DNA of 64,000 bases from Amoebophrya sp. A120. Its lineage: Eukaryota; Protista; Dinoflagellata. Location: positions 2,673,513-2,737,512 of the forward strand of contig CAJINV010000004.1 in the NCBI GenBank assembly GCA_905178155.1, written 5' to 3'. The position numbers and the translations under genes were made by a program. Of this stretch, positions 1,007 through 61,686 are shown one piece after another (the stretch's first letter is position 1; each line of letters begins with the position of its first letter). The notes below the pieces were generated by a model. That model worked only from the letters and a program-made list of their open reading frames with translations, searched no databases and was not told where the DNA came from.

Positions 1007-3973
1007 CTATGAACTGGTAAACACACCGTCAATCTCGTGAATGATCCCGTTCCAACAGCGCACGGTTCGCACGATGTTGCAGCTCCGGTTCCCCACGGCG
1101 ACCTTCCGGTCCAGGCCGTAAAAGTACTGGTCCTCGAGGCAGTGCTTCACAAACACGTCGAGTTTTTTTATCCTATGTAAAAACGTCCCCACCCCATAGT
1201 TGTAATGCAAATGCGCAATTACAGGAACATTTGTAATGCGCATCTCCATTACGGGCATTTCCGATCGTGTTTTGGACTTTGTAGTGCTGTAAACCGGATG
1301 GCAAGCTAGCTTTCTCATGCGGCTGCCCTTGCTAACAAGCACTACACTGCAGATGGGAACTTGTCATGCACAACGCCCAAAGCTTGGAGATTTGTGTTGC
1401 AGATAGAGCAACTTGACTATGGGGCGGGGACGTTTTCGCTCAGGATATTTTTCCGGGGATTTTCCAACGTCCGCAGTTCTGCCCCGCCGAACGTGCTCTC
1501 GTTGATGCCGTAGGGGAGATGCCGGCGAAACCGGCCCTCCAGCAGCGCGTACTGCACTTCGCTCGCGGACTGGTTCGCGACCAGCTGGTAGGGGTCGATT
1601 TGGGGCTGTTCTGACTGCTCGGTCTGTGCGAGTGCACAACTCACCCTCCCCCTCATTTGTAATGCAAAATCCCATCAAATCCAATTGCTGCCTTGTCCTT
1701 GTGGCGCTGCTTGCATTACAAAGTCTGCAAACCCAAGCGCATGCAGCACTGCACTCAACGCGTGAGCTTGTAATGCGCAGCATCCACAAGTATTGGTCTT
1801 TGTGTTGCTGTTCATGCCATAGAAATGAGTGGGAGGAGCGGGACTTGTGCACTCTCATACGGTCGTGTGTAGTCCACGTGCCCGCAGGGGTCCGCCGCCT
1901 CCACCCGGTGCACCTATTTGTCCTGCAGCTGGACCGCCTGGTTCTTCTTGCAGCTCTCCTGGTGCAACAACATCTCCACCTGCCAGCCCCATTTTTTCCC
2001 TTGCCATCTGCTCCGTCTGCTCGCTGATGCTGGCCCGCTGCATGGATTCCGTTAACAGGTTCTTTTGCACCGACGACAGCTCTGTACTGGGGATCTGACC
2101 CACGTACTCCGGTAACCGGTACCCGGTGCGTGCCGTGCGAAAGTGTATCAAATACAAACACGTCTGGATCTGGAAGATTGATGCGAGATTTGTCATGTTA
2201 GTCTGGCATCATGTTCATGACTCTGCGCCCTGTATTGTGTGGCCACCAAGTAGAGGTCCGCTTGCCGGTAATGCAAATGCGCAGCTTCTCATGCGAAATA
2301 CGCAGCACAGACGCACAAAAAAACTTGTCATGCTTGGCGGCGCATTGCAGAGCACTTATTGCTCCTCACGGACTTGCATCACAAGTTTCCAGACCCAGAC
2401 ACATTTGCATTTGATAAAGTGCTTCTCGTAGCAATCCTCTATGTAGCCGTCCATCAGCGCGCGCTCGGGGTAGACGTACGAAACCGGCTCCGAAGAGAGA
2501 CACTGAAACGTCGCGTGATCATCGTGGCCACCACTGCGAGAGTCGTCTCCAAAGTAGTTGTTTTTGTTGAGCGCAAGAAGCTGTTCTTTTTGTCCATCGA
2601 AGAACGAGCTGGAGTTGTCTTCGTGCTCCTCCTATCCAGTGCAAACATGTCTGGGCCCGGAGTAAACTCATGATGCTGAGTGGAAAAATCATGAGCAGGA
2701 TGCCACAAGTGACGGCTCGGCGTGACAAGATTCTGGGTTCTTGCTAGGTGTCGTCTAATATCCAGCATGACAAACTTCTGCGTTTTTGCATGACAGAAAT
2801 AAGCCGTGGCTCTTTGGTACTAACCTACATGATAGACTTGAGAATCAGGTCCGGACCCGGAGCTGACCATGCTAGCAGAGCATGACAAACTTCCATCCTT
2901 CCAGACCACCCAAACATATTTCCGATGCATACCTCCTGCATCCGCTTCTCCCGTTTCAGATCCTCTAAATAGTTCAGAAGTGCAAGTTTCTTCCGTGCGG
3001 CCTTCTGCGTCTTCGGGTTCGGGTCAGTTAGCTCGTTTTCGAGTTCCTGATCCTGGGATCGCTGTTCGGCGTAATAATCTCCCCACCAGCGTCGATTTTT
3101 GCCTTGTTTGTCGCTCGGTAAGTTAAAGTTTCTATTCCCCAACGCAGGACCATCGTTGTCAGTCGCAGAAATTGATGCGGCCCCATTCTCCGCCAAGGTC
3201 GCGACGGCGTTGTACGAGTTCACCAGCTCTGGAATGTCGAACTTTCCCAACACGAGGTGTCGCTTCAGAAATCGCAGCAACAAATCCGGGTTGTCGCGCA
3301 TGGTCTGCCACGAATTTTTCCCAATTTTCGCAATCGCCTCGTTATTGGGCACAAACATCGTGAACGGACCGCTGGTAGAAATCAAATTCAGCAATCTACT
3401 CGTGCAGGCAATTCTATTTCCTGGTCCTGCGCCTTCGGCGTCACCGATCCCAACTCTTCCGCGAAAGTTTCCGTCGTAGGAGCCGTCTTCACGTGGTTCA
3501 CCCTCTAATCCCAAAATAGGAGAAGAACTGTTATCAAGCCCGTCATGATCATCATGTGAGAAAACTAAATCCTCCAGCCGGCCGTGTTCCAGAAACTTTT
3601 TCTCCCGCCTCTGCTTCGTCCGAAAGTCCACCTCGTTGGTGAGCAGTTTCCCCTTGGACAGCAAATTGTACCAAAGCGAACACCGCTTCACTTTCGCCGT
3701 CGCGTTCACAATCGTGTCGCGCCGGCTGATGTCGTGCACGTGCTGGTAGTAGGCCAGCGCGTTGTGCTTGGCGTTCGGCGTGTTGTGGTGAAAGCCCTTG
3801 TAGACCGCACCGCGCTCCTGCCGTGGCGTGTAGTTTTTCGTGAAGCGCCCATTACACTGCGCCGGACAGACCTTGGCGTTACTGTTCCCCCCGTTACTGT
3901 GGTTGTGGCCCATACCACGCAAAATCTTCGAGAAACGAAAGATGCCGCCGAAGCAGCCCGTGGCTTCTGACAT
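1007..3973 (-). CDS. Fasciclin (FAS1) domain protein, 5 exons (3973-2932, 2627-2417, 2140-1860, 1619-1448, 1163-1007)
   Basis: FAS1 H1 GPFTMFVPNNEAI, LKRHLV, and H2 CWNGIIHEIDGVF; removing four TAT..ATA elements plus one 5-bp repeat each gives a continuous frame (MQE|EHED, EKHF|RTAR, LHTT|EQS, PRK|KLDV). Confidence 0.8.
1169..1447. mobile_element. Introner, family F
   Basis: TIR TATCCT..GTAAAAACGTCCCCACCCCATAGT; TSD TTTTT; no GT-AG possible. Confidence 0.9.
1625..1859. mobile_element. Introner, family B
   Basis: TIR T(G/A)TG(C/A)GAGTGCACAA; TSD CGGTC. Confidence 0.9.
2146..2416. mobile_element. Introner, family C
   Basis: TIR TATCAAAT(A/G)CAAA..GTCTGG.TCTGGAA; TSD AAGTG. Confidence 0.9.
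2633..2931. mobile_element. Introner, family C
   Basis: TAT..ATA ends; TSD CCTCC (sense GGAGG permits GT-AG). Confidence 0.9.
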
Positions 3974-4030: not shown

Positions 4031-4485
4031 TATATAAGGCAAACTTTGGGGCCGGAGAGGGTACGGTAGAGGTTGGGGAGAGGTTTCGTAGAGGTTAGAC
4101 AGAGGGTCGGAGAGGTAAAGTAGAGGGTCGACAAAAACAAGAGGGTCGGGGAGAGGTAAAGGGAGAGGGTACGGAGAGGGTCGGGAGAGGGTGCGCAGTA
4201 TAGGGACCCGTATAGCGGCGCTATACGCGCGCAGAGGGTCGGTAGAGGTTGAGTAGAGGTCAAATAGAGGGTGGGGGGAGAGGGTGTAGAGGGTCGGAGA
4301 GGTTCCACAATATAGGGCGACCCTCTAAGCGACCCTCTACCGCGACCCCCTCCGGGAGCCTCTATTTTACCTCTCGGCGGACCCTCTCGGGACCTCTTGG
4401 ACCCTCTCCCGGACCCTCTCCGAACCTCTCCCGGACCCTCTCCGAACCTCTCCCGGACCCTCTCCGGGACCCTCTACCAGAACCG
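4031..4485. repeat. Inverted pair of short-unit arrays (AGAGGGTCGG-like, then CCGGACCCTCT-like)
   Basis: 4050-4300 repeats AGAGG(G)T(C)GG; 4320-4480 repeats its reverse complement ACCCTCTCC(C)GG. Confidence 0.85.
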
Positions 4486-11416: not shown

Positions 11417-11699
11417 TATGCAAGGAGAAAATCACTCCATCGTATTCAGCATTTTTTCGTCTACTTGCCGGTGCAGTGGGAAAGGAGTTTTTTCACTGGT
11501 ACGTGTGCATCCAACTCCTGAAAATCAAGCATGCATTTTTCCGCCGGTGCCGGTGGTGCAGCATCTGCCCTTTTTTCATGACTTGGGGTTATCACTTTCA
11601 GTGTGTCAGGTTCTGGAGAAGGAACATGATCCTCAGACCAGCAAATTTTTCATGCAAAGCAGCGTCGTGTACGGTGTAGCGTCATCTTCTCCTTGGATA
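11417..11699. mobile_element. Old introner-like element
   Basis: TAT(G/C)CAAGGAGAA(A/G)AT(C/G)AC inverted ends; TSD not retained; TTTTCATG(A/C) motif variants inside. Confidence 0.55.
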
Positions 11700-12686: not shown

Positions 12687-14611
12687 CTAAGGCGCAGGTG
12701 GAGGCGGTGGCGGCGCGGGGGGCTGTGGTGGTACTGTCCCGCTCTGGGGCATACTCATCATTTGCATCATCTGCATCTGCGTGGCCATCATGTGCTGGTA
12801 AGCGGCCCCCTGCTGAGCGGCGCTGCTCACCGGAGACACAGCATTTGCAGCAGCTGGAACTGGTGGTATGGCAGCAGCAACTCCTGTACTAGAAGAAGTT
12901 GATGTTCCTGTTGTATTTCCTCCCGCTACGCCCTTCATAGTCGCGTTAAAGTTCGGGGGAAGCGGGGCCAAAGACGTTGAGGGGGGACTACGCCGTGGGC
13001 TGCGGGACCGAGAGCGCACGCTGGCGGCTGGTTGAGGGACTACTCCTGTAACAACACGACTTTGTGGTGCGCCAATTCCTCCTGGCACGCCCATACTCGA
13101 GGCCGTGGCGGTCGCGGCGAAGGGAGCGCTGCTCTTGCCTCCAGTCAAGATCGCCGTGGAAGTAGATGATCCACTTCTGTTGTTCGCCGCCGCACTGGCT
13201 GTATTTGCAAACATGTGGTAGGGCAGGTTGGTGACCACCCGGCCAGCGGCTTTGGGGACTGTGCCCTCGGGCGGGGGCCCCGGAATCACGCTGTTTTGCG
13301 GGCCCTGGATGGAAAAGCCCTGCATATGAAATGCAAAAATGTCTGGGTCTGGAAGATTGCAACTTGTCATGCTGTTTTTGGACTCTAAAAAATTTTGTAT
13401 TGCATGACCAGCAAGAGGGACACCGTTTGTGCTACACGGGCAGGGCATTTCTCATGCGGAAGGTGCATCAGGAAGCCCTCTAGATGTCTGCGATGCTAGG
13501 TCATGCATTACAGGCATCATGGGTCATGAGAAATATGCATGACAAATCTCACAACCTTCCAGACCCAGACATTTTTACAATCCATACTGCACGGGAAACG
13601 GCAACAGAGGGCGCTGCTGGTTCATGTGCTGCTGTGGTTGTAGTGGTCCTGCTCCGAACATACCAGGTTGCATCACGAAACTGTTCGGGCCGCCCATCAT
13701 GCCTGCTCCTCCCCCCGCTAGTACACCTCCCACGCCCAGTCCTGCGGGCGGCACCGTGAAACCTGCCGCAGTTCGGAGTTCCGACGTGCCGTGCGCGTAG
13801 TGGCAGTTGTCCCCCCACTGACAATAGCCCTTCAAATGTTTCTGGCAGATCTTCGTCTTATACAGGTGCTCGCGGCCCGCGAAACAGGCGGGAATGGGCC
13901 GGTTGGCCGGCGGCCCGGTGAGCGCGTTCATCTGTTGCTCGCGGTCCCGTTCCTCTTTCGTCACCTCGCGGACGTGAGGACCACCACGACGATGATGGCC
14001 CCCGGTAGCGGAGGTTGACGCTGTGCCATTCGCGTAATTCTGCTCGTCGTCACTACTGTCGTCGCCGCTGCCGTTGTCGTCGTTGCCGGTCGCTGCTTCC
14101 TCGTCGTCCTCCGAATCCATCCAGGCGAACTCCCGTTTTTTCTTCTTCTTTTTCTTCTTCCCGGAGTTCATCCCTTCGCCCTGCTCCTCTTTCGCCTTTT
14201 TCTCGAGAAGCTCCTTGGCCCGCTGTAGCCGCTCCTCCCGCTCCTCCTTCTCGGTCTGTTTCCGGAAATCCTCCAGCTCTTTCTCGGTCAGCTAAAAAGT
14301 GATGAAGGAAAGTTTGTATAAAATTCATTAGAGAGGACAGGGGCCGTGCTGCCAACAGTGGTAGTAAAAATGCAGTTGTATCTTCAAACATCAATGAAAC
14401 AATCTCTCTATCGCTAAAACAGGGTACGTAGATATTAAACATAGAATCTTGTTTCATCTACCTGTGGATTTATATCGTCATTGACGGCTTTGTCCTCCTC
14501 GTCCTCCTTTACTTGCTCTCGCCAGTCTTTCGCCTTGCTTTTGACTGTGGCACCTCCAGCACCCACGACGGCTCCCCGCTTTGCGCCAAGCGGGTTCTTG
14601 CGGCCAAGCAT
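12687..14611 (-). CDS. CCCH zinc-finger RNA-binding protein, 3 exons (14611-14462, 14291-13587, 13319-12687)
   Basis: YKTKICQKHLKGYCQWGDNCHYAHG (C-x8-C-x5-C-x3-H); canonical GT-AG intron 14292-14461; introner removal gives FPVQ|GFSIQ; Pro/Gln-rich C-terminus. Confidence 0.85.
13325..13586. mobile_element. Introner, family C
   Basis: TIR with TGTCTGGGTCTGGAAG; TSD CTGCA. Confidence 0.92.
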
Positions 14612-15519: not shown

Positions 15520-18500
15520 TCAGTCGAAAACCAGACCCGGATCTCGAATACGATCGCCTTTATCTTCTTCAAAACCTCGTCCGCCCTCCGCTGCACTCCG
15601 GACAGGCCCGCACGGCACGCTGGTCCGCGGGATTCCAAGCGGACGCGGGATGCTCGCGAGGATCTGGTGGAGGGGGGTGGTATTACTGCCCCTCGTCCCA
15701 GCTCTCGCAAGGTCTCGACGTCCTGGGGTGATCGGATTCCGTCTGGCGTCAAGGCCCGCTGGGTGATGTTGTTCTGCTGCTCGGTTATTTAGTGCTGCGC
15801 TCGTCCCGGGGCTCCATCTCGAGGGGGCCACATTTTGGTTCTTGGGCTGTCTTTTGTTTTCCTCGCAGCCCCTGTTGCTCAGATGCCTCTGCTCGTGTTC
15901 GTCAGAACTTCTCGCATGGAACAAAGTGTGAGAGGTCTTGTGATCCTCGAAAGCCTCCACCCCACCTGGAGAGTCGTTCATCTGGCGGCAACTCAACACT
16001 GGGACCACGTCGTTGCGGGACCGCAGCTCCGGATGGAAGTCCCTCGACGGGGACGATGAATACTGCTCCTGCAACATCTGGTGCCTCAGCGGCTGGTGCC
16101 TTTGCGTTTGTTCAGACAACTTGCTGGCCGCGTGGTTCACTTGCATTAAGCTCGCAACACTTCTACTTGTTTTAGAACTGTCCTCGTCCATCACCGGCGA
16201 GCCTAAATCCGGGCGCACCACTTGCGGCTCTTCGGCTGCCGAAGTCACGTACCCGCGACGCACTGATTGCAGGCTCTTCCTGGTGCTTCTCAAGTCGTTG
16301 TAAATGGGGTCGTTCAGGTACATAGGAGGCTGGTGCAGTTGTTGTTGGGGAGTGTAGTTATTTTTAACCCGGGACATGATCACGCCAGCACGACCGGGAG
16401 GTGTCGCAGCGGTTGTCGAGGAACTAGCTGCTCCTGAAAATTCGCTATTTTGAAGAAACAAATTCTTCGACGCCACTTCTTCTGCAGCGCTACTGCTGTT
16501 CATCCGGCAAGCTGCACCTTGTTGGGTAGAAGACACAAATTGTAATTCCGGCGGGGGAAGTGAGTAGGAATTATTGTGGGTCCAGCTTATGCTAGCTTCT
16601 TGCTGTGGAGGATGCATACGCAACGCGCCGTCGTGGGGCCCGTAAGAACCAGGACTCATCCGGCGTTCGTGGTCGTAGGACTCTGTCGGTGAAAAAGGAA
16701 GTTCACACACATCTTGATTCCATGCGGCTCGCTGCTTCGTCTCGCGCAGGTCGCGCAAATCGTACGTCGGTGGCAGTTCCCGGCGCGGGGGGCAGGAAAG
16801 TTTGCGCGGCAGCTGCAGGGAGGAAGGGGTGTAAGACGCGTCATTTTGAACGAGGTCATTTCCACGAGCTGCTGTGCGCGTCATCCTCTTGAGTGGTTGC
16901 TGTGTCGTCGCGCCGCGCAGGTTATTTTCCTGTGTGTCTTCGTGCTGGTGAGGCCTACGTAATTGCAGAGACTGGAGGTCGTGTGGGTTGTTATCACCAC
17001 TCCTGTGCGCAGGATCGCGTTTTTGATATTGCTGCACCACACGACCCTGGAAAACCAATCCGGGCTCTACTTGAGATTCTTCGTTACAGAAGTCCACGTC
17101 CTGTATTTCGCTCCGATATGGTCCTCGTGGAAGCTCACGACCTCGCTGCAACCCCAAGCTGGCTTCGTCAAGCCCCCGCCGCTGGGCCTGTTGTGCGGTG
17201 GTCGCAAGATGTTGTACTGCATGAGCTTCGTGCCCACGTCGCTGCTGCTGGTGCTCTCCCACTCCCCCGGGTCCTCCCGGAACTGTGTTGGGCACAGGAA
17301 TGTGGTACGGCTGCGCGCCGGCGACAGGGTGGATTTGGTGTTCGTGAGATGAAGTGACGGCGCCGTGGTTGTGCAGCTGCTCCACTCCGCCACCCCTCCC
17401 AGTAAAGCCTGCAGACGAGGAGCTTGTTGCAGGCGACAGCGGCCCGCTCCTGCGGTCCATGTCTTCGTAGTTTTCATCTTGTCCCCTCCTGTAGTGCGAA
17501 GCAGGTACGATCGACGGTCGCGGGTGATGTTGCTGCACCACTATCGTCACCGGAGGCGGCGCTGCACGAGGACCAGGAGAATTATGCTCCTGCGCGTAGA
17601 AATCACAATTAGCAGCTCTTGTCTGACTCTGCTGGCTTTGCTTCTGCATTTTGCGCCCTGCACGAACCGGACTTTGGTCGCGCTCCTCGTCAAACAGCCG
17701 CCTGCTATGGGAGTGTCAGGATTGAAATCGTCAAAGTTGAAATAGTTTGGCATGCAGAAAATCCAACGCAAAGATTACCTCTGTTGCAGAGGACGCAAGG
17801 GAGGCAGATTGTAGTGCAAGCAAGGGTCGAGAATTGGGCTGCTGACTAGCATCACAGAGGGGGGCCCCTTTGCCCTGAACAGCATGACAAACTGGCTTCC
17901 GGTACGGACGAAATTTGTCATGCGCCGACTAGAAACTGTGGGTCCAATTGGTAATCCATTTTATGCATGACAAATCATTTCATTTCAACTTTGTCGATTT
18001 CAAACCTGACGCTTCCATACCTGCCGTGCTTCCCGTACTTCGCATGGGCCTCCGCCAGCAGGCGCGCGGCCTCGTCGGATGGGGAGAAAGCTGGAGCAGC
18101 CCGAGTCGTTGCCGACGAGGGCTGCGTGTTGAGGGTTGTAGGTTTGTCAACGCGACGGCCGGATAAAGATGTTGTGGTCCTGACGTCGTGGAGGTCGGGA
18201 GGAATATAATTTTTAACGTGCTCTGGTACTTGATGTTCCCGTTTCGGAGTGCGCGGCGGATACACGCTGTAAAGTTCCTCGTCCTCGTAGTGGGCCGTCC
18301 CATGATAAGGGTCGTCGTAGTACTTCTCCTCCTGCTTATTTTCGGTCCTGACAGACGACGACGAAAACAAATCTTGATCTTCGCCATCAGAAATCACCGC
18401 CTGGAGTAGCTGCTGTTTCTGTTGCTGGTGCTGGTGGTGATGTGCGCCGCGTCCTGTTCGTCGTGCGTGATTCGTCTGTTGACCACCACCACATCCCGGA

Positions 18501-20563: not shown

Positions 20564-20809
20564 TCAGCTGCTGTCGCCCTTGGTGACCATGGAGACGGCA
20601 TCCCCTCGGACGTAAAGCATCTCCATCTGCCGGAGCTCCTTCGCTGGGGTCTTTTCCTCGACACTCGAGAGCAGCATGTTCAGGTGTTCGTCATACGCGT
20701 GCAAGGTGCCCTTCAGCTCCCGCCCATTCCTGCACTTGATGAAGCACTCCTTCGCGAGAAGATGGGCCACCATGTCGATAGGATTCGAGATTTTCGTGGA
20801 CCCGTTCAT
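20564..20809 (-). CDS. LSM3: U6 snRNA-associated Sm-like protein LSm3
   Basis: IKCRNGRELKGTLHAYDEHLNMLL (Sm1) and MLYVRGDAV (Sm2) match LSm3. Confidence 0.88.
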   Translation of the reverse strand: MNGSTKISNPIDMVAHLLAKECFIKCRNGRELKGTLHAYDEHLNMLLSSVEEKTPAKELRQMEMLYVRGDAVSMVTKGDSS

Positions 20810-29140: not shown

Positions 29141-29230
29141 GTATATAGATTTATATTTGCCTTTGCTGTTTGAACAAAAACGTAGTGAGCTGCCTTTTCG
29201 CAACACCGCTTTATTGGTTAGTGAGAAAGC

Positions 29231-29532: not shown

Positions 29533-29724
29533 GTGTCATTTTAATAATAGGAAAAAAAGAACCGAAAAAAAAGCAGGGCACTCTCAACAATTGAGGAAAC
29601 AGCTTTTTATTGCGCGTCTGTAGTAGGGCTGGCGCGCGAAGTTCAAAAAATAAGTGGCTTACGCGCGGCGCCTTCATCGTTTCGCGCTTTTTCGAACATG
29701 TTTGTCGTTTTTTGTCATCAGCTC

Positions 29725-44358: not shown

Positions 44359-44699
44359 GAGAGCGGATGGAGAATGTTCTTTGTGAAGATTGCAATATTA
44401 CGTCGTGTAAACCTAAACAATTCATTGACGTACGTCAAAATTTATTGGCTGTAACTGTAAGTATCTATAATAACTCGCGAAAATTAAATTTTTCTTTTTG
44501 TTTTTGATAGATAAACAAAGACCGCCAACCAAGAAAGATACACGACACAACGAACAGACCGATCGTGCGGAATGAACATATGTACTTAACTTACGCCCCT
44601 TGCCAGTGAAGATGAAAACATCAAATCCGGCATCTTCACAATAGACCAACTAGCCTTGAATTTTTCATGCGTAGCTGCGTATTGCAGTGCGTACGCCAT

Positions 44700-44749
44700 T
44701 CACTTTTAGCATTACAAGTCTCCAGACCCAGACATTTTTGCAATCCATA
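44700..44749. mobile_element. Solo right end of a family C introner
   Basis: AGCATTACAAGTCTCCAGACCCAGACATTTTTGCAATCCATA with no matching left end found. Confidence 0.7.
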
Positions 44750-46921: not shown

Positions 46922-49498
46922 CTAGACCCGGCTCATTCCGCAAATGATCAGCGGTCGGCACGTTTGGTCCGTGTGCTGTTGATGTGCGGCGGCACCAGCA
47001 CGACCGTACAGCGCCGTCCCCGCCACAGAGAGGTCGAGCATTCGTGCAGCGGTTCCACTATGAACTGCAAAAGCATCGTACTATAGTATAAATTGCATTA
47101 CAAATTACTCCTTAGCATCAGAATGAAATGGAATTTGTAATGCGGATTTGCCTTCAGAAAAAGATTTGTAATGCATGACTGCAATTACTACGAGTACGCT
47201 ACTTTTGCACAGGATATCCACCTCTCGAGAGTCCGGGTCCCGAGGTGATGGTCCACGCGTCCGGTCGCTCCAGTTGTCCGTTGCGCATGGTTATGCATTG
47301 CAAAAGTATCGCACTAGTATAAACCGCATGACAAATTTGTTCAAGAAGAAAATTGGAATCTGTAATGCAGATTCAGACAGGAAAGCAGCTTTCTCATGCA
47401 TACCTGCAATTCATACGACTACGATACTTTTGCAGTGGATAATGGTCCAGTGCTCAGCGGAGAGGTCAATTTGATGCCGTTGGTTGTTGTAGTTGTATCG
47501 AGTTGCTGTCGTGCGACCACTAGAGGACGACGAGGATGCCGCAGTTGTTGTGCTGGCTTGGGCCAACACTCCACTTGTTCTAGTGCAGCTCGTAGAGTCG
47601 GTTGTAGTTCCACCGCCCGTTGCAGCGCTGGCGGTGCTCGTCGTCGTTGTCGTCGTCGTCTGCACGCCCCCTTCGCTGCTTGATGTTGTGCGCAAACCAG
47701 AAGAGGTGGAACAACAGCAGCTGCTGATATTACCGTACAGAGGACTGCTGTTGGTCCTCTTGTCCTTTCCAGTAGCTCTTTCGTCATCCCCCGAAGACGA
47801 AGAGGAGTCGTCTTCTTCGGATGTGGTGGAACTTGGGTAGGACGTGCTGGCCCCGGAAAAATCGTACAAGTTGCAGCCATATCAAATGTAAAAGTGTCTG
47901 GGTCTGGAAGATTCTGAGACTTGTCATGCCTGTTTTGCCTGGGCCATAATGTCTGTGATGCATGCCCTAGCATCACAGACTTTTTGAGGGCTTCGTGATG
48001 GTGCCTATTCCGCATGACAAATGCCCTCTCCGTGTAGCAAAAATTCCACACCACTCCCTTTGCTGCTCATGCAATACAGATTTTTGTGGAATCCAAATTC
48101 AGCATCACAAGTTGCATTCTTCCAGACATCCAGGGATTTTTACATTTGATAAGCCATCGATGCTGCAGTCGCCCTCGTAGTAGATGGATTTCTGCTCGTA
48201 AAAGTCGTGCTGGTTCTCCCGGGAAAACAGGATGCCCTCCAGCTCGTCCTCGTCAAACAACTCCGGAATAGTCAGTTCTTGATCATGTGATGTAGAAGTA
48301 GGGGTCGCGATTTTTAGGCTTAGGGAGGTAGAAGCTTGTAGTTGATTTTGGGGTGCGGGTGCCGACGTCGAAGTAATTCTGGCCGTTTTCTTCATATTCA
48401 TTCCTTTTTTCGTGGCAGAACAAGAAATAGTCTTCAGGTCACGATTATCAAATGCAAAAGTGTCTGGGTCTGGAAGAGTCATGCTGTTTTTGCATGACAC
48501 AGAAGGTCAGGCATGGAAGCTCTAGCATCACAGGTTTCGAGAAGCTTCCGCAATGCCGAATCCGCATGACAAATCTTCCATTTTGGTGACAGAAAGTGGG
48601 CAGCTTTTGCCACCTATGCGTGAGAGATTTTTCTGTGTTCTGAAATGCGCATCACAAGTTTGTATTCTTCCAGACCCAGACATTTTTGCAATTGATAACG
48701 ATCTTCATCTTGTTCCTCATCCTCGTACGTCGCCCCATTATCACTGCTTGTTCCGTGGCTGCTCGACCGCTCCGTGGCGGCGTCGAGAGCGGGAACTTCT
48801 CCGGATCGTTCGCTGCTGAACCCAAAGGATGAAGCACGTTCTTGCAGCTCAGATGATGCGGAAACTGCACGACCAGCAGCGGTTTCCTCGTCGTCTTGCG
48901 CAGCCGAAAGCGAACCCGCAGTTCTTGTCGTCTCCTGCTGCTCCACACTACTACTGGTAGCATTTGTTCCCTGCTGCTGCTGTTGCTCCATGAGGCTCAT
49001 GTGCGGGAAAAACACCACGACATTGCTGTTACGGTCGTGGAGACGGAAGATGTGGTTTCGGTAGGTGTAGTCGAACAATTCATTTGACAGAACGTGCTCC
49101 GAAAAAACCGGTCGCGAGCCCAGCAGGTCCAGCACCGTCGGATCAAACTGAGACGCAGAAAAACCGCCACCCAACGTGGAGGTGGTGGACGATAATCCAC
49201 CGTTTAATAAATTCGCAAATGGCGCGGACTCATTCACACTCAATCGGTTGCGGACCACCGCCGTCGTGGTGGGAGTTGTTGTCGAATTCGTTGTATCAGC
49301 TCCGACCCCTCCTTGCTGCTGCTGCTGCCGTTGTTGTCCCCGCTGCTCAGCCTGTTCCTGCTGCTGCAGGTACTCGGGCAGCCAGTGGTAATTCTCGTAG
49401 ACCTGGGTCCAGTGCGAATGCACGACCACGGCAAAACCAGACGCCTTCGGGACGAGAAGGTGGGGGGAGATGCCGGGAACTACGGGAAGAAGCGGCAT
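46922..49498 (-). CDS. Hypothetical protein, at least 5 exons; may extend to ~49700
   Basis: Frame continuous after removing four introners (EDR|DLK, IDG|CNLYDF, HWT|MRNG, SRGG|TAAR); no family recognised. Confidence 0.6.
47059..47216. mobile_element. Introner, family A
   Basis: TSD TCCAC. Confidence 0.92.
47292..47441. mobile_element. Introner, family A
   Basis: TSD ATGGT. Confidence 0.92.
47880..48151. mobile_element. Introner, family C
   Basis: TSD AGCCA. Confidence 0.92.
48446..48697. mobile_element. Introner, family C
   Basis: TSD ACGAT. Confidence 0.92.
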
Positions 49499-50891: not shown

Positions 50892-53800
50892 TCAGGTAAC
50901 CACCTTGCTATTTTCCCTGTCCCATCCCTGTTCGTTAATGCCGATGTGTCGATTTGGGTCGTTGGCCGCGATTTGGTTTGCCTCCGAGCAGTGAAGCAGA
51001 TTGACCAAGGAATGGATGTATCCTGTGTAAACAAATCAACAACAGCATCGTGGTCTTCTACCCGTGTAAGTAGTACATTTTTACATCAACCCGATGAGCT
51101 TCCATCCAAGCGTTGAAGTTTCAAGATTTTATTTTAGATTCGTCATGCAAATGCATAGACAGATCACAGCATGGTGCACAGGGAAGAACTCGTGGCTATG
51201 CAAGCGGCGGTAATAGTGAAAGCGTTGTTCTTGATGGTTGCACAGGATATGTCGTTCAGCGCGTCGTGAAACTCGTCCGCAGTGAGGAAGGTCAGGTCCT
51301 GCTCCAGGTCTAGGAGTATGCAATGGATGAAACGTATTTGTTCGCACTGGTTGTATGAATCGCTATCGCATGAGCATGACAAACTCTTGCAAGAATTAAA
51401 TAAGTCCGTGGATTTGCATGTGCTATTCCACGCCGGCGAAGACAACACTTGACGTCATGCATGACTGCATCAATTCTTTGTACGAGCGCGACACATTTTC
51501 TTTTCCAGGAGGGATACGGAGCTGCGTGAAGCTGTTGCCCTGGACATCCCGGCCACCGCGTACCAACCGACTGCTCTCTCCCACCGCCATCTTTTTCGTG
51601 AACACATTCCGCCGGTTCTGGTTCGGCTTCTGCTTGTTCAGCTGCATCTTGTTTTTCTCCTTGTCAAGATTATACTGCGCCACCGCGATATGGATGTGTC
51701 AGAATCGAAATTAACCAAATCGGAAAACTTGTGATGCACAAAATCGATGCCAGTTAGAGCCTCAGTTTTCAAGTGGCGCATGAGAAATTTCGGGAGCACC
51801 AAGATCCAGTCTGTCATGCTGTTTGGACGAAGAAGACTGCTGCTGTCATGCTACTCTGGCAGCACATCGTCTTCCCCTAAACAGGCCTGCTATCGGTCTC
51901 ATTTGCCTGCTCCCCAACACAGGCCTTGCGTGCCCATCATTTTACGCATTGCAAATTTTTCGACTTTGTCGATTTCGATCCTGACGCTTCCATACGCGAA
52001 GGGGTCAAATTTGAGCGCCCGGTCGAAGTAGTAGGTTTCGTTCAGCATTTGCTCGTACACTTGCTGCTTGCGGACGAGCTCGGATGAATTTTGCTGCTCT
52101 ACATCAACATCATGATCATCTTCTGCGGATGGCAATGGCAATGCTGGATCGCGGCTCGGCGATCCACCAGCGTCGCTCTCTTCCACAGCAACGCTCCCAA
52201 AGGACGACGCGAGTGGCAGGCGCCCAATGAATTCCGACCCCAGTTGCTGGGGTTGGCTGAAGGCAACTTTTTTAGACGTAGTTGACGAGGAGCTGGTCTT
52301 TGTACTTCTATGGGATAGTACAACCGGTGTAGTTGTAGTTCTACTACTTGAAGGCGCGCCGCGATGAGGACCTGGCGGTCCTCGTGAAGACGCGTCGTCC
52401 TCCGAAACAACAACAGGTGGCGCTACAAAGGATTCACCGGCAGCACCGGCCGCGACCTCGTCCCGCTCCTGGTCAAACATGAAACTGTGCATCAAATTCT
52501 GTTTCTGCGACCGGCTCATGTGCAAGGAGAGTTCGTCGAGGTAGGTTCTTCTGGGTAAAAAACGGGTCTTCGTCAGCTCGCGCAGCGGGCGGGGCAGAAG
52601 CTCCGTTTCGACGGAGAAGTCTGTGGTCAAAGCGAGCGCGAAGGATAGCGCACCAGTGAGAAATTTTTGCGCGTCCGAGTGCAGAAAACTTTCAAAAATC
52701 AAACTCGCCCGCTTTGTGAATAGCGAGTCCACGGGCCAAGGCTGGGTGCCGTATGAACTGCAAAAGTATCGCACTCGTATAAATGCATGACTCAGCATGA
52801 GAAACAGAATTTGTCATGCGGATCTACGTTAAGAAAAAGATTTGTAATGCATGACTGCAATGAGAATTACTTTTACTGCGAGTAAGGTACTTTTGCACAG
52901 GATATGCCGCCCGTTTCGACGATAACGTGGTGGAGAAATTCGGAGAGTGCCTTTTTATCTAGTCGGAAAATCAGGTCAGGAAGGGACCGGATAATTTTTA
53001 TTTTTTTGTCGACAATAGCACTACTTTGGCTTTCGTCTGGCTCAGGTTTATGATTTTCTACTGAAGATGCTGCAGCGCCCGGCGCGGCCGCGCTCTTGGT
53101 CAACACCGCGGCTCCATCCGTTGTGGCGAACCGTCGCAGAAGCTGGGAAAAGGTTTCAAACTTGAGCACTTGTTCAACTTCGACAGCAACATCTATTTCC
53201 TCGGGTACTGTTGTAGAAGTCCCTGCGCCGGCAACATCAAGTAGATCAGAGCGGCTCTCTCGCCGGAGCCAGGCCACCTCCGCCTCTGAAACTGGCGCGA
53301 ACAGTGCGTCGAGTGCGACCAGCAGTCTCGGCTTTCCCGAGCGCTGCATTTGGTGAAGCTGAAATTGGTACTTGTCGGGCAATATCCTGTGCAAAAGTAT
53401 CGTATTCGTATAAATGCAAGTCTTGCATTACAAATCTTTGTCTTAAGGCAAATCCGCATGACAAATTTTTTTTCTCATGCTAATGCATTTCTTTATACGA
53501 GTACGATACTTTTGCAGTCCATAGGCAAACAGCTCTTTTCCGACAAGAGCCACTCATGGTATCGCTCCACCGTCGTGGCGCTTTATGCAGGGCAACAGTG
53601 AAAAACAGTGTCCTCGCACGACGACGTAAAAAGAATTGCATTTACAAATTGAGTCGTTCTCGTCTGCTTTCGAGAGGCATTAGAAAGAACACTAATGGAA
53701 CCTGTAATGCCGATTTTGCTTGGCAATGGGAACAAGAAAGCTTGTGGCCGTCAACATGCATAATTTCAAATTGCAACTAGAGTCCGAGGACGCACTATAG

Positions 53801-55935
53801 ACTTTTACACCAGAACACGTGCGTACATTTCTGCTCGAGAAGTACCGCACTCCCGTGGCGGCGCAGAGAGCCACGACCTCCTTTCGCCAGTTCACAAACA
53901 TCTCCGCCATGTACTTCCGTTATCGTAAGGAGAAACTCCCCCTGCCCATACTGAAAAGAGACACTTCTGAATATTTGCGATGCTGATTTGCAGACGCGAA
54001 TCGTCTCTGTATTGCAAGAAAGCAAGGCCAGAGACCCCGCCGCGCTTTGTGGGCGCAATTTGTAATGCTGTAGGGCGTGCAGAGGATAAGCCTCCCTCGC
54101 TAGGCGCCTACACCAAAAAGGCCCAGCTCAGGCTTTGTATCTGCGCGCGGTGAGACCTCTACGACTACTGCAAGACAAAGCTGATTTGTGTACACAAATC
54201 TTGCATCACAGATTTACGATTTGATACGGGGAGGGAGGATTTTTCATTTTGATATCCGCTGCATTTTCACGAGGGAGAAATTCCAGAACTCCTGCGGAAG
54301 GAGATCCTCTTCAGCGTGGTTTCCCTTTCTTTCGGGAGAAGAAAAAGGGACTTGCTCATTTGCTTGGTCCTCTGCAGGACGATCGAGATGACGATCTTCT
54401 GCAGTTCCAATTATCTCGCTGGTACTACCACTTTCCAATTCACCGAGTAGCCGAACGTTTTTCCGCAGCTGCGTGGACTTTCGCTTTTCCCCCTTGGTCA
54501 GCAGGTGATCGTTGTCGCGCGCCATGTAGAGCATGCCCTGCGAGACTATCCAGAAAAAAACACCCATCCCCATCCATATTTAGCATGACAAACACTGCAC
54601 TTTATCCAGGTTTTGCATGACAAATTGGATGGGGATGGGTGTTTTTTCCTGGATAGAGACCGCCCAGACCAAATGCAGGGAGATCGCGCGGAACCACATG
54701 TGGCCCACGGGAAAGACAATTTTGTGGTCATACTGCGACTTGCGCAGCTGCGTCACCTGCACCGTCTGCTCCATCACGGAATTCCCCGGGTCAATCACCC
54801 GACCCTCCACCGCCTCGCGCCAATGGTCGTAGGGCACCTCGCCCCACTTGTGCTGCCAAAAATGGTCCGCAGAATCCATATCCGAGGCTTGCTTCGGGGT
54901 CAGGGAAGCGGAGGATGGTGGTGGTGCGGATAACAACGTTTTTACATCTCGGCTTCCGGAATATGGAGCATGAACATGATCCGAAAGATGAACAGTAGTA
55001 CCTGCAGGAGGACCAACATGACCATCATTGGGTGGAAATTCCGGTACTGCCTCAACGTGATTTGATGTTATCGCGGATGAAGCAGGTCTTGTAGTCACCG
55101 TCGTTGTGTAGTACGGCCTCCGTCGCACTCCCTTCGCGTGTTCCAACAACTCCAGCTTCCGCGGGCGCCACTCCGTGCGCGCAATCCTGGACATTTCGCC
55201 TCCGCACGCCCAGAAGAAGAGTTTATCAAAGCCGCCCTTCACGTGGCCAATGTTTTTCAATGTCTCCTCCGCGAAACAGGCGAAGGCGGCGTTGGCGAAA
55301 ACGGTGAACTGCATCTCAAACGTGCGGGAATTCCACCCGGGAATCGCGTAGTGGGCCAGGGAATCGAGCCAGTAGTCCCGCGGGAGCCGGGAGCTCGCCG
55401 CGCACAAGGAGTGTGGCTGGAGTACGGCCAGCTCATTCTCCCAAATCACCGGAAACACAAAGTCCGGATCAAAGCGCGCCACATGCACGTCGTCGAGCAG
55501 AACCAAAACATAGTCATAGTAGGTTTTGTTTTCATAATTTTCGCTTTTTCTGTTCGTGGTTCCGGTTCCTACCCCCTTGATAAACTGCTCATACGCGTTC
55601 CACAGAGCGTTCTGGTAGTGTGCTTGTTCGTTTCGCACCACGGCGCAGCGATGCACGCCGGTACCGTTGTGCGGAGGGGCTGGGGGTGAGTGCGTGGCGC
55701 GCGAGGTGGTAGCAAGGCCGCTGTCGTGGAGCTCTTGTGTATGTGTATGAACGATCCGCTCCAGGTCGTATTCTTCCCTTTTTCGCCAAGTGAAAATGGC
55801 ACAGTCCACGTCCCGCGCCGAAAAATATTGGCTCCGGGAGAAGCTGTTTTGCAGCGTCTCGATGCTCTTTTTCAAATACGGCCATCGCTCCCGGTCGCCG
55901 TGGCCGGGGACCAGAATTAGAAAGCGAAACTGCAT
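50892..55935 (-). CDS. Large protein with an N-terminal DUF707/glycosyltransferase-like domain, about 9 exons
   Basis: YYDYVLVLLDDVHV..FDPDFVF..LAVLQP..FEMQFTVF.NAAFAC recalls DUF707; frame restored across 7 introners; one intron at ~53584-53800 is unresolved. Confidence 0.6.
51019..51249. mobile_element. Aged introner
   Basis: TATCCTGTG(T/C)AA TIR; TSD degenerate; frame restored. Confidence 0.75.
51317..51516. mobile_element. Aged introner
   Basis: TSD AGGAG/CGGAG; frame TQLR|DLEQ. Confidence 0.8.
51689..51994. mobile_element. Introner, family D
   Basis: TSD CGCGA. Confidence 0.92.
52752..52904. mobile_element. Introner, family A
   Basis: TSD TGCCG. Confidence 0.92.
53383..53523. mobile_element. 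Introner, family A
   Basis: TSD GGCAA. Confidence 0.92.
53921..54254. mobile_element. Introner, family I
   Basis: TSD TCCGT/TCCGC. Confidence 0.88.
54547..54655. mobile_element. Introner, family H (109 bp)
   Basis: Near-perfect TIR TATCCAG.AAAAAACACCCATCCCCATCCA; TSD GAGAC. Confidence 0.93.
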
Positions 55936-59126: not shown

Positions 59127-61686
59127 CTACAACTCGTGCACCATGCCGTCGGGCGGCTTCAAGTCTGCCAGCCCGTTGCGCCACATCATGAACTGCCAGA
59201 CCTCGTTGTCCTTCTTCGCCCAATCTGGTCGCTTGTTCGCGTACTCTTTCACCGGCGACCACTCCGCGTGCCCGGTCTTCAAGTCCACATCCACTTCCGC
59301 CGGAACTTGCTGCATGTACCGTGCCAGTGAACGCATGTTTCCCGTTATCCAGGAAAAAAACTGTGTAAGTGTGAGCTTCTTGGAAGAATAGCATCACAAG
59401 ATTGCTCCGCATGACACAGAAAACCTGTCATGCGTAGCTAGTACGTGAAAAGGAAAACACGCACGAAAATTGCCTCTGATGCATGTCCAGCACGACAAGT
59501 ATAACAGTTTTGCATTTTCTGCAACACAAGTTTACACTTACACAGTTTTTTTCTTGGATACCCGTGTCCGGCTTCAACCGCAGGGTTTCCGGGTACACCT
59601 CGTAGCTTATGAGAGTGCACAACCCGACGTCCCCCTCGCCCTCCCACCGCCCCTCATTTGGTATGCAAAATCCCAAATCCACTCTTTGCCCTGTGGCACT
59701 TCTTCCATGCCAGACTCCCGAAGCCCAAACAGCATTAGAATCGGTCGCGCTGGACTTGTCTTGCAAAACCTGCATCTGTGCCAGCACTTGTGTTGCTGTT
59801 GTTGCCATCCAGGTGCAAATGAGAGAGGCGGAGTAATTGTACTTGTAGTTGTGCACTCTCATATAGCTCAGCGGGGGCGGCGCGCCGGAGCCCGGGGGAA
59901 ACTTATCCTTCAGCTCCTTCGGGTACAAAAAGTCGACCCAATCCCGACACGCGTTGGGCCATTTTTCACAGGCGGATTTGTTCGCCAAACTGTCCAAATC
60001 ATTCGGGTCCTGGGCGGTGTGTCGTGTGGTGACAGAAGAGGACGACCCGATCACTTCGCGGAGCTTTTTGTACAGCAACGGAATGCCGATCGGCCCGTTG
60101 TCGGGCGGTTTCGTCGCGCCGGAAGACAACCGCGTCACTGGGTACTGCGGGACGCTTTCCTTTCCCAGATTTGCCAGCGCCGCGGTTTCGTCCGCCGACT
60201 CGTCGATCTCCTGCTGCGGTGGGTGCAACTGGCTGGTCGGGTTGTTTGCATCTGCTGCATTTGCATTTGCGGCACTTGTAGCTCCGGCCATAGAAGTAGT
60301 ACCAACACGACTCGGATCGTCGTCGGCAGTGGTGCTATCCGTTATCGAGGGCGCGACGATCCGGACGGCGGAGACCGTGCCGCTTTCCGGCAGTAACTCC
60401 ACGTCGCTTCCGCCACAGAGCTTGGTGAAAATTCGGGTGTCGTCGTCGTCGGAGAGGTAATTCCAGGGCGACGCCACGGTCGTCATGGTCCAGTGCGTGC
60501 ACTTGGGGGTGTTCTTGCACAACACCGCGGCATCCCTCGCCTCAAACACGTTGGGCGCGACGCGGAGGGTCTCGTGGCACGCAGTCTTCGCGTTCGCGAA
60601 GAGGAGCGTGCCCGGGTCGACGGGGTGCGGCGGCAGGTGCAGGGAGTCCTATGCATGGCAAATGTGTCTGGATCTGGAAGAGTCCGAGATTTGTCATGCA
60701 GTTTTTCCAAGCTCCACCAACTTTGGAGTGCAGGGCGTACTTAGCATCACAGGTTCTGCGGTGCCTTGGTAGTGCCTATTCTGCATGAGAAATGCCCTCT
60801 CAGCATGGCCAGAATTAGAAATGCAAATGAGCAGCACCGTTTGCAAGTCATGCAACACAGATTTTTGTGTGATCCCCAAGACGCATCACAAGTTCGTACT
60901 CTTCCAGACCACCCAGACACATTTGCATCTAATAAGTCCCGGGCCTTCACGAGTCCGGCGTGGAATTTCTTCTCCACCTCCGTCGCCTCCTCCGGTATGG
61001 GGCTCTCAAACGTTACACTCTCAACTGTTGCAAAAATTTGTCATGCAAAAACAGCCAAACTGAAAGGGGGATCCATCCGTGTCTTGCATTACAGATGATT
61101 TGGCACGGATTCCTAATGGTAATTTTGCATCACAAACTCATGCAACAGTTGAGAATGTAACGCTTGAGAATCCCATATCCGGCAGCGGCGGGTTGCGGTA
61201 GTCCGCCCGCAGGACCCGGTCGTAGTGCTCTCCAGAGGTGACATTCTCATCCGAGTCCAGATCAAACCTGGTCCCCTCCATCAGGGTGACGCTCTGCCGC
61301 TTCGAGTCCCACGCAAAGTACCGGCAGCGGGGCGCCTTGTCGCAGAGAAGGCTGGCGTCGTTGAGACTTTTCACCTCGTTCTTGGTATCGACGTACTTCC
61401 CGTGCGTCGTGTCCGGCACGGCTTTGAGCCCCTTCAACAGCAGCGGCTTCTCGAAAAAGTCCGCGTACTTCAGCGTGAAATGCCGCCGCAGCGTTTCCTG
61501 CCGCTCGCGGCGCTGCTGCGCGGGGGAAACGCCGTCTGGCGTGGTGGGCGAGGGCGGCCTGATACTCTTCGCCCCGATTGGGGGGTAGAAATCCGGCGCC
61601 AGCGAATGGCTCTGCAGGAAAGCGCCGAGGCCTTGACCCATAGTTGATTGGAAGTGGTGAAAGAGGGAGTTGTTGACTCCCCCCAA
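59127..61686 (-). CDS. Protein with two PAN/apple-like Cys motifs, at least 5 exons; start uncertain
   Basis: ASLLCDKAPRCRYFAWD and AAVLCKNTPKCTHWTM resemble the PAN core CxxxxxCxxF; joins PPLSY|EVYP and DTG|NMRS checked in frame; four introners delimited. Confidence 0.6.
59346..59560. mobile_element. Introner, J-related
   Basis: TIR TATCCA.GAAAAAAACTGTGTAAGTGT; TSD CCCGT. Confidence 0.92.
59608..59863. mobile_element. Introner, family B
   Basis: TIR TATGAGAGTGCACAAC; TSD TAGCT. Confidence 0.92.
60650..60934. mobile_element. Introner, family C
   Basis: TSD AGTCC. Confidence 0.92.
60996..61177. mobile_element. Introner, family K
   Basis: 37-bp TIR TATGGG..TCTCAA.CGTTACA.TCTCAACTGTTGCA; TSD TCCGG. 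Confidence 0.92.

What the first reader, a model, noticed from the sequence alone, without database searches (positions are those of the whole stretch)
1169..61177. Multi-family system of non-GT-AG introns: TAT...ATA inverted-repeat elements whose removal with one 5-bp TSD restores the frame
Seen: 54 elements of 108-351 bp in about 11 TIR families interrupt coding sequence. Ends are almost always TAT...ATA, often TAT-N7-AAA. About three quarters have a perfect 5-bp direct repeat and the rest a degenerate one. At the junctions I translated, removing the element plus 5 nt restores the frame and often a conserved motif (MRE11, CDC50, FAS1, methyltransferase). Only about 5 can be given GT-AG ends by sliding the junction within the repeat; TSDs such as TTTTT, TGAAA and TCAGA cannot. 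Established (recalled): similar inverted-repeat introner elements were described in Amoebophrya, so their existence is probably not new, but I know of no established excision mechanism or mobilising enzyme. Inference: a structure-guided splicing or excision pathway tolerates transposon insertions anywhere in exons.
Basis: partly seen in the sequence, partly recalled or inferred. Interest (0 to 1): 0.85.

Follow-up and report, generated by a model that had tools for sequence, protein, structure and literature searches.

The report
Transposon introns with fixed cut register
These are the already described transposon-like introns of the algal parasite Amoebophrya A120: transcript contigs lack them exactly, and the cuts likely fall at one fixed distance from their ends, which narrows how they could be spliced.

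Summary
Window proteins match deposited Amoebophrya sp. A120 proteins at 100%. Farhat 2021 describes these introner elements down to the TAT-N7-AAA motif. I count 55 elements of 108-351 bp; 40 have a perfect 5-bp repeat, and 4 can read GT-AG on the sense strand. RNA-like contigs from one sample lack element+5 nt at 26 elements (14 joints, 2 abutting pieces, 10 length sums); none resolved was retained. Added here: all 8 RNA junctions where the two repeat copies differ fit one register, a cut 1 nt before TAT and 4 nt after ATA. Seven were predicted beforehand, and 4 deposited-protein sites agree. The paper calls the position variable. Both orientations of one family are removed, as are copies with a decayed repeat or stem. 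Introns then begin N-U-A (55 of 55), a donor-like site, so a modified spliceosome is likeliest; this is untested. I found no transposase; a Ginger-like one is proposed in print. The scan has unchecked notes of similar introns in other dinoflagellate genomes and none in this one.

The parts
1169..1447 (-). element, perfect 5-bp repeat (FAS1-domain gene)
1625..1859 (-). element, perfect repeat, 3' end ACA
2146..2416 (-). element, perfect repeat
2633..2931 (-). element, perfect repeat, GT-AG at k=1
11417..11699 (.). element, decayed repeat (2/5), in no long reading frame
13325..13586 (-). element, perfect repeat (CCCH zinc-finger gene)
17706..18019 (-). element, perfect repeat, GT-AG at k=1
23666..23873 (-). 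element in MRE11, repeat 3/5, k in {0,1}
   Evidence: RNA joint 23660-23874
24492..24642 (-). element in MRE11, perfect repeat
   Evidence: RNA joint
24870..25091 (-). element in MRE11, repeat 3/5, k in {0,1}
   Evidence: RNA joint 24864-25092
25316..25594 (-). element in MRE11, perfect repeat
   Evidence: RNA joint
25645..25794 (-). element in MRE11, repeat 4/5, k in 0-3
   Evidence: RNA joint 25639-25795
25975..26202 (-). ordinary GT-AG intron in MRE11 (no inverted repeat; control)
   Evidence: RNA joint
26514..26666 (-). element in MRE11, perfect repeat
   Evidence: RNA joint
26766..26880 (-). element in MRE11, repeat 4/5, k in 1-5; retained in the deposited protein
   Evidence: RNA joint 26761-26882
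26955..27104 (-). element in MRE11, perfect repeat, 3' end ATG
   Evidence: RNA joint
27157..27315 (-). element in MRE11, repeat 3/5, GT-AG at k=1, k in 0-3 by deposited protein
   Evidence: contig length sum
27412..27562 (-). element in MRE11, perfect repeat
   Evidence: contig length sum
32699..32982 (-). element, perfect repeat
   Evidence: abutting contig pieces
33295..33451 (-). element, perfect repeat
   Evidence: abutting contig pieces
34815..35022 (-). decayed element found only through RNA, repeat 1/5, k in {1,2}
   Evidence: RNA joint 34810-35024
35280..35436 (-). element in methyltransferase gene, perfect repeat
   Evidence: RNA joint
35561..35803 (-). element, repeat 4/5, k in 1-5, no predicted terminal stem
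   Evidence: RNA joint 35556-35805
35969..36288 (-). element, perfect repeat
   Evidence: RNA joint
36357..36507 (-). element, repeat 4/5, k in 0-4
   Evidence: RNA joint 36351-36508
37320..37489 (-). element, repeat 4/5, 5' end TAC, k in {0,1}
   Evidence: RNA joint 37314-37490
38824..39174 (-). element, perfect repeat, in a 145-codon frame
   Evidence: laid but not resolved
39532..39680 (-). element in CDC50 gene, perfect repeat
   Evidence: laid but not resolved
39721..39934 (-). element in CDC50 gene, perfect repeat
   Evidence: laid but not resolved
40039..40349 (-). element in CDC50 gene, repeat 4/5
   Evidence: laid but not resolved
40410..40666 (-). element in CDC50 gene, perfect repeat, GT-AG at k=1
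   Evidence: laid but not resolved
40700..40848 (-). element in CDC50 gene, perfect repeat
   Evidence: a contig piece starts at 40849
41296..41483 (-). element in CDC50 gene, perfect repeat, no predicted terminal stem
   Evidence: contig length sum
41555..41662 (-). element in CDC50 gene, perfect repeat
   Evidence: contig length sum
41915..42103 (-). element in CDC50 gene, perfect repeat
   Evidence: contig length sum
42181..42446 (-). element in CDC50 gene, perfect repeat
   Evidence: contig length sum
42647..42946 (-). element in CDC50 gene, perfect repeat
   Evidence: contig length sum
42982..43211 (-). element in CDC50 gene, perfect repeat
   Evidence: contig length sum
43498..43629 (-). 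element in CDC50 gene, perfect repeat
   Evidence: contig length sum
43721..43869 (-). element in CDC50 gene, perfect repeat
   Evidence: contig length sum
44659..44749 (.). partial copy (one arm only)
47059..47216 (-). element, perfect repeat
   Evidence: laid but not resolved
47292..47441 (-). element, perfect repeat
   Evidence: laid but not resolved
47880..48151 (-). element, perfect repeat
   Evidence: laid but not resolved
48446..48697 (-). element, perfect repeat
   Evidence: laid but not resolved
51019..51249 (-). element, repeat 2/5, k in {1,2} by deposited protein
51317..51516 (-). element, repeat 4/5, k in 1-5 by deposited protein
51689..51994 (-). element, perfect repeat
52752..52904 (-). 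element, perfect repeat
53383..53523 (-). element, perfect repeat
53584..53825 (-). decayed element found through the deposited protein, 5' end TAC, k in 0-2
53921..54254 (-). element, repeat 4/5
54547..54655 (-). element, perfect repeat
59346..59560 (-). element, perfect repeat
59608..59863 (-). element, perfect repeat
60650..60934 (-). element, perfect repeat
60996..61177 (-). element, perfect repeat; ends shared with an 815-bp element in L031

Best explanation
These are the introner elements of Amoebophrya sp. A120: short non-coding inverted-repeat insertions with a 5-bp direct repeat that are absent, together with 5 nt, from transcript contigs, and that are likely cut 1 nt before TAT and 4 nt after ATA by what is probably a modified U2-type spliceosome. 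Step 1 (inferred): a cut-and-paste transposase, possibly Ginger-like and acting in trans, inserts an element and duplicates 5 bp; a short motif repeated inside nearly all families would be its binding site. Step 2 (shown in contigs of one sample): the mature RNA lacks element+5 nt in either orientation, so the protein is unchanged. Step 3 (inferred from 12 informative junctions): the register is fixed, so every intron starts N-U-A-U, an ordinary donor with a free first base, and ends ATA plus any 4 nt. Step 4 (inferred, untested): the terminal stem brings the ends together, and the spliceosome core reads U+2/A+3 and sets the acceptor by distance instead of by AG.
For: Identity: 100% to A120 proteins; same motif in print. 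Removal: 14 of 15 listed joints skip element+5 nt and the 15th is a GT-AG intron; 2 more by abutting pieces and 10 by exact length sums. Orthologues align without a gap at 9 of the 10 MRE11 element junctions; the tenth lies in a poorly conserved region. Register: the only offset allowed by all 8 informative RNA junctions is k=1, and 7 of these were written down beforehand. The chance of fitting is 0.005 if k were uniform over 0-5, and 0.0004 with the 4 deposited-protein sites. A k=1 model reproduces P0121 exactly over 8 elements. Orientation: 25645 and 26514 against 33295, 35280 and 37320, one family, all removed. Donor-like end: +2 U and +3 A in 55 of 55. Pooled strand-resolved end variants hit +2/+3 once against 9 times at the mirror positions (Fisher p=0.013). 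A25 elements begin TTA plus two purines and its top classes are TT-xx, again N-U-A. A120 has nearly all U2-spliceosome proteins but no detected U1 snRNA, while a GT-AG relative has U1. Fixed branch-to-acceptor distances of a few bases exist in other species.
Against: No result here touches the chemistry: contigs cannot show lariats or circles. All RNA evidence is one sample in one study, the runs are only guessed to be RNA, and 5 of 20 joints were not shown. No single junction pins k=1 alone, and a wobble over k=0-2 is not excluded (p=0.088 on RNA, 0.039 with protein sites; k=1-2, p=0.125). Farhat's legend says the site is variable. The end asymmetry was first seen in the window; in the independent loci alone p=0.07-0.09, with 14 of 28 variant elements strand-called by a codon model. 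The A at -7, my branch-point candidate, is changed in 2 of those 14. GT-AG at k=1 is not enriched in the loci (3 of 156). The Table S4 N-T classes may be aligner bias. The one verified GT-AG intron does not end in ATA+4. No transposase was found.
Confidence: 0.55

Rival explanations
1. Same elements and same fixed register, but removal is by a separate, non-spliceosomal nuclease and ligase that recognises the terminal stem, as proposed for the nonconventional introns of Euglena.
For: The first and the last four intron bases are free. TAT pairs with ATA at probability above 0.5 in 40 of 54 and the fold z-score is below -2 in 45 of 54. Both orientations work. Euglena introns have the same geometry, a short 5' and a longer 3' offset from a paired motif, and their authors favour separate factors. 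Ordinary GT-AG introns coexist in the same gene.
Against: Elements with no predicted terminal stem are still removed (35561, 41296). End variants that break pairing (+4 C or G, -6 C) outnumber those that keep it (+3 G, -7 G), while +2 U never changes. The register puts U at +2 and A at +3, as in a spliceosomal donor.
Confidence: 0.3
2. The hairpin only brings the exons close; the cut slides by a base or so inside the direct repeat from intron to intron, as the original paper's legend implies.
For: Farhat Fig. 3 and Fig. S23 legends. Each informative junction allows at least two offsets; a spread over k=0-2 fits the RNA set with probability 0.088.
Against: 12 of 12 informative sites contain k=1. 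Three RNA sites exclude k=0 and three exclude k of 2 or more, with no contradiction. The published spread is expected from aligner ambiguity inside perfect repeats (inference).
Confidence: 0.12
3. The junctions are not RNA splicing: they are reverse-transcriptase jumps across hairpins between direct repeats, or DNA-level excision, or the genes are pseudogenes.
For: Hairpin plus direct repeat is the classic substrate for template switching (established knowledge, recalled). The runs are not on record as RNA, and only cDNA-type data were seen.
Against: 38 of 54 insertions would shift the frame if kept, and removal restores long frames in 53 of 55 and ungapped MRE11. Elements with 1/5 or 3/5 repeat identity are removed at the same length. 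Single contigs lack every resolved element and also a GT-AG intron, and one gene has a poly-T loose end. Contigs of run X5, of even depth 41-45, read from unique flanks into the elements.
Confidence: 0.03

Closest known systems
Introner elements / non-canonical introns of Amoebophrya sp. A120 (Farhat et al. 2021, PMC7789003; sections 10-12, 16, 32, 36 and supplement parts 2-3 read, figures not seen)
   Same: Same organism, same TAT + N7 + AAA inverted-repeat start, 3-5 nt direct repeats (5 bp in the Fig. S19 legend), many families, no internal transposase, non-GT-AG ends, RNA-supported removal.
   Different: The text I read leaves the cut position variable or unknown and does not mention element orientation, lariats or a shared internal motif in the passages returned. 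Here the junctions fit one register and both orientations are removed.
A120 introner families in Gozashti et al. 2025 (PMC12130899; passages and supplementary file 8, parts 15-16 and searched rows)
   Same: TIR DNA families of similar lengths (about 106-340 bp) with about half non-canonical ends; family 38 is listed as Ginger, 5-bp TSD, TA/TA termini, about 810 bp.
   Different: Their automated calls of TSD length and splice-site origin vary between families. No family sequence was available to me, so the match of the 815-bp L031 element to family 38 or 196 rests on length, arm length, termini and TSD only.
Nonconventional introns of Euglena (PMC12501133, passages; PMC11282704, passages)
   Same: Non-GT-AG, MITE-like, flanked by direct repeats that make junctions slidable, cut at set offsets from a paired terminal motif, coexisting with ordinary introns.
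   Different: Signature N3-CDG...CH'G-N5-6 with a purine starting the next exon, against N1-TAT...ATA-N4 here. Circular excision is reported for Euglena and unknown for A120. Unrelated lineage.
Spliceosomal introners of Micromonas, Aureococcus, Symbiodinium, Polarella (PMC9860276, passages) and the non-canonical introns of Fritillaria (PMC11282704, passages)
   Same: Non-autonomous transposons that become introns, with one TSD copy lost on splicing.
   Different: Those keep or co-opt recognisable splice dinucleotides. Here only the second base of the donor is fixed, and no acceptor dinucleotide is (32 end classes among 55).
Ginger DNA transposons (PMC2836005, passages)
   Same: TIR elements with integrase-type enzymes; TDD-4/5 make 5-bp TSDs.
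   Different: Ginger termini are TGTNR and most make 4-bp TSDs. These elements start TAT and code for nothing recognisable.

Membership tests
A120 introner elements (Farhat 2021) | Located in the Amoebrophrya A120 genome | tested here: met
   Two exons 100% identical to proteins named Amoebophrya sp. A120; the spliced model equals P0121 over 1095 aa.
A120 introner elements (Farhat 2021) | Terminal inverted repeat starting TAT, 7 variable nt, at least 3 A | tested here: met
   TAT bases 107 of 108 at each position; TAT-N7-AAA at 74 of 108 ends.
A120 introner elements (Farhat 2021) | Direct repeat of 3-5 nt overlapping the exon-intron borders | tested here: met
   5 bp, perfect in 40 of 55.
A120 introner elements (Farhat 2021) | Removed from RNA with mostly non-GT-AG ends | tested here: met
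   26 elements supported by contigs of one sample; GT-AG possible in 4 of 55.
A120 introner elements (Farhat 2021) | Repeated in families, no internal transposase, hairpin-forming | tested here: met
   16 clusters, largest 21 members; longest stop-free stretch 103 codons; fold z below -2 in 45 of 54.
U2-type spliceosomal introns | GT(GC)-AG ends | tested here: not met
   4 of 55 at the supported register.
U2-type spliceosomal introns | Excision as a lariat through a branch-point A | not testable with these tools
   Only contigs were available. The internal motif has no fixed distance to the 3' end and lacks a sense copy in 12 of 54; the A at -7 is 55 of 55 in the window but changed in 2 locus elements.
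Euglena nonconventional introns | Signature N3-CDG ... CH'G-N5-6, purine at the next exon start | tested here: not met
   Ends are N-TAT ... ATA-N4; the first exon base is a purine in 34 of 54.
Euglena nonconventional introns | Excision as full-length circles | not testable with these tools
   No raw reads of this strain were available.
Ginger DNA transposons | TGTNR termini | tested here: not met
   Termini are TAT; definition.
Ginger DNA transposons | 4-bp TSD (5-bp in TDD-4/5) | tested here: inconclusive
   5 bp fits only the TDD type.
Ginger DNA transposons | Gypsy-integrase-like transposase in autonomous copies | tested here: inconclusive
   No genome held. The 815-bp relative in L031 gave no integrase hit in Pfam, PDB, Atlas or the representative library.

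The most novel reading that the evidence does not exclude
A120 has a single, orientation-independent splicing code, N-TAT ... ATA-NNNN, with the first and last four intron bases free. It lets any insertion of this transposon group be removed without trace, either by a spliceosome that has given up U1, G+1 and AG recognition or by a new machine, and a sister strain reached the same N-U-A donor with different elements.
Probability: 0.6. Interest if true: 0.75.

Novelty: already known. Interest (0 to 1): 0.42.

Why it matters
The elements themselves are published, so the finding as given is a rediscovery. What the window adds is a concrete rule for an open question: how tens of thousands of introns without GT-AG are removed exactly. 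A fixed 1/4 register tells where to look for a branch or a circle junction and which bases to mutate. It also allows correct gene models: the deposited MRE11 keeps a 120-nt insert that the RNA contigs remove. If a spliceosome does this, it would be one of the most relaxed known and would show how a genome becomes tolerant to transposon insertion anywhere in exons.

Tried and rejected
No whole genome is held, so no genome-wide count or transposase search was possible. The run search listed no holder on record as RNA. The joint table was swamped by repeat copies from run X5 (15 shown, 1931 hidden), so it cannot show or exclude element-free DNA alleles. X1-X4 have no cover over 28270-31608; not used as evidence. 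The internal motif as branch point was rejected: it occurs on both strands, has no fixed distance to the 3' end, and has no sense copy in 12 of 54, including removed elements 23666, 34815 and 35561. An invariant branch A at -7 was weakened by 2 exceptions. Enrichment of GT-AG-compatible targets (4 of 55 in the window) did not repeat in the loci (3 of 156). G at intron +1 is mirrored by C at repeat position 1, so it reads as target symmetry. Rfam found nothing in the window at E up to 0.1. The element pattern is absent from viral contigs. The 815-bp element gave no Pfam, PDB or Atlas match; its 159-codon frame found one unnamed 87%-identical protein without domains and one repetitive protein. 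A search meant to name the organism of the L loci found nothing, so whether they are A120 or a relative is open. The snRNA alignments of the paper are figures and could not be read. The tunicate paper search returned nothing relevant. Literature searches; none listed a paper on the A120 splice register or intermediates, but subscription papers are not covered.
Full report
Observation. A scan for TAT...ATA pairs with complementary arms found 48 pairs against 0-3 in 20 shuffles. Relaxed scans and BLAST gave 53 complete elements; an RNA joint added 34815-35022 and a deposited protein added 53584-53825. Of the 55, 51 have both ends perfect and 40 have a perfect 5-bp direct repeat; no other repeat length fits. 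All interrupted genes lie on the minus strand. Removing element+5 nt puts 53 of 55 into stop-free frames of at least 300 codons, against 11-19 for other lengths. Keeping the element would shift the frame in 38 of 54.

What it is. An MRE11 exon and an exon of the gene at 50895-55935 are 100% identical to proteins named Amoebophrya sp. A120. Farhat et al. 2021 (PMC7789003; named sections and supplement text read, figures not seen) describe A120 introner elements with inverted repeats that start TAT, 7 variable bases and at least three A, direct repeats of 3-5 nt, 1954 families, more than 60% non-canonical introns, and no U1 snRNA detected. The finding is that system. Gozashti et al. 2025 (PMC12130899; passages and parts of one supplementary table read) class many A120 families as TIR DNA transposons and list family 38 as Ginger, 5-bp TSD, TA/TA termini. 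A candidate enzyme class is therefore in print, without proof.

RNA evidence. Runs X1-X4 are one sample and are only guessed to be RNA. Their contigs behave like mRNA: they skip an ordinary GT-AG intron at 25975-26202 and one gene ends in a poly-T loose end. Over 23500-37800, 15 joints were listed and 5 hidden; 14 skip exactly element+5 nt. Two more are shown by abutting contig pieces and two by a length sum that predicts the contig ends. One contig over the CDC50 gene holds 977 nt where the genome has 2579, which is exactly eight elements plus 5 nt each. That makes 26 of 55 supported, 10 of them only by sums. Orthologues align without a gap at 9 of the 10 MRE11 element junctions, so these are insertions specific to this lineage. 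The deposited MRE11 equals my model with the in-frame element 26766 left in, an annotation miss. Contigs of run X5, of even depth, read from unique flanks into the elements, which fits presence in DNA.

The cut register. Where the two repeat copies differ, the mRNA shows which copy each base came from. Let k be the number of upstream-repeat bases that leave with the intron. I wrote down the joints expected for k=1 before the last lay. Seven of the eight predicted joints were listed and all seven matched; the eighth was not listed. The unexpected element 34815, whose repeat is nearly gone, allows k=1 or 2. The only value common to all 8 informative junctions is 1. Deposited proteins give four more sites, all compatible, and a k=1 model reproduces P0121 exactly; these gene models are only partly independent. 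The fit has probability 0.005 (RNA) or 0.0004 (all 12) if k were uniform over 0-5, but 0.088 or 0.039 if it wobbled over 0-2. So a fixed register is likely and a one-base wobble is not excluded. The paper's legends call the position variable or unknown; its top A120 classes all begin N-T, which fits but may reflect aligner preference. My searches listed no paper that states this register; figures and subscription papers were not seen.

What is read. In this register every intron begins N-U-A (55 of 55) and ends with ATA-like bases plus four free ones, giving 32 different end classes. In the 14 elements defined by RNA joints, the two arms mismatch 1, 0 and 1 times at positions 1-3 and 3-8 times at positions 4-10, so the triplets are held while the rest decays. 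Members of one family are removed in both orientations (25645, 26514 against 33295, 35280, 37320). Most elements fold into a terminal stem (40 of 54 with TAT:ATA pairing above 0.5), but 35561 and 41296 have none predicted and are removed. A motif of the form GCAT-N-ACAA occurs on both strands in 50 of 54 elements, with 165 of 183 window hits inside elements that cover 18% of the bases (the pattern was drawn from these elements). It has no fixed distance to the 3' end, so I read it as a transposase-binding repeat, by inference.

Related loci. The largest family's arm was found in at least 149 stretches of metagenome contigs; the listed rows share one assembly prefix, and DNA flanks were fetched for 80. 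They hold 328 distinct elements, 263 with a perfect repeat under a filter that demands 4 of 5, and 48 of 55 window elements have relatives at 69-94% identity. Their organism was not determined. Of 28 elements with one changed terminal base, 14 could be strand-called: changes fall at +2, +3, +4 in 0, 1, 4 cases and at -7, -6, -5 in 2, 3, 4. Pooled with the window, the 5' U and A are spared more than their mirror bases (p=0.013); in the loci alone p=0.07-0.09. Pairing alone does not explain the pattern, since pair-breaking changes at +4 and -6 are commoner than wobble-keeping ones at +3 and -7. This is a lead, not a result. An 815-bp element in L031 shares its ends with window element 60996 and resembles family 38 in size, termini and TSD, but no transposase was detected in it.

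Mechanism. Most likely (0.55) a changed U2-type spliceosome removes the elements: it reads a donor with a free first base, uses the stem to find the other end, and sets the acceptor by distance. Support is indirect: the N-U-A start, the same start in strain A25, missing U1 in these strains and its presence in a GT-AG relative (PMC12005148, passages), and fixed short branch-acceptor distances in other species (PMC2483917, passages). The main rival (0.3) is a separate nuclease and ligase as proposed for Euglena (PMC12501133, passages). A sliding cut (0.12) and artefact or DNA excision (0.03) are less likely.

Verdict. Real, correctly described, already known. The addition is a testable splicing rule drawn from 12 junctions. 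Supplementary figures of the 2021 paper (S14-S25) and the unread rows of the 2025 table could bear on the claim that the register is new.

Noticed in passing
window 26766-26880: The deposited A120 MRE11 (P0001, 967 aa) keeps this in-frame insert as 40 residues; RNA contigs of all four runs remove it.
   Followed up: yes
L031:4528-5342: 815-bp element with a perfect 5-bp repeat whose ends match window element 60996-61177; size and termini like published family 38; no recognisable transposase.
   Followed up: partly
L001-L148: An assembly in metagenome contigs carries the same element families at other genes; organism not determined.
   Followed up: partly
window 47880-47913: About 90 raw RNA reads of run X8 match only this element arm and continue into other sequence, which may be a related element in another strain.
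   Followed up: no
window 25975-26202: The ordinary GT-AG intron sits where the predicted protein P0002 has an insertion, so the position may be ancestral.
   Followed up: no
window 28051-31772: Four copies of a 60-90 nt repeat about 1.1-1.4 kb apart, with many short palindromic repeats between them; no Rfam match.
   Followed up: no
window 6325-7559: A 1.2-kb stretch bounded by 53-nt inverted arms (89% complementary) of a different type.
   Followed up: no
window 4052-4475: Opposed GA-rich and CT-rich short tandem repeats forming a long imperfect inverted repeat.
   Followed up: no
window 62720-63268: 183-codon minus-strand frame that recalls a reverse-transcriptase fragment (from memory); no Pfam hit.
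   Followed up: partly
window 20570-20812: An LSM-domain gene with no element in it.
   Followed up: no
window 39532-43869: Thirteen elements in one CDC50 gene, with exons between elements as short as 28-35 nt.
   Followed up: partly
window 11417-11699 and 44659-44749: One element outside any long reading frame and one single-arm remnant, so insertions are not confined to coding exons.
   Followed up: no
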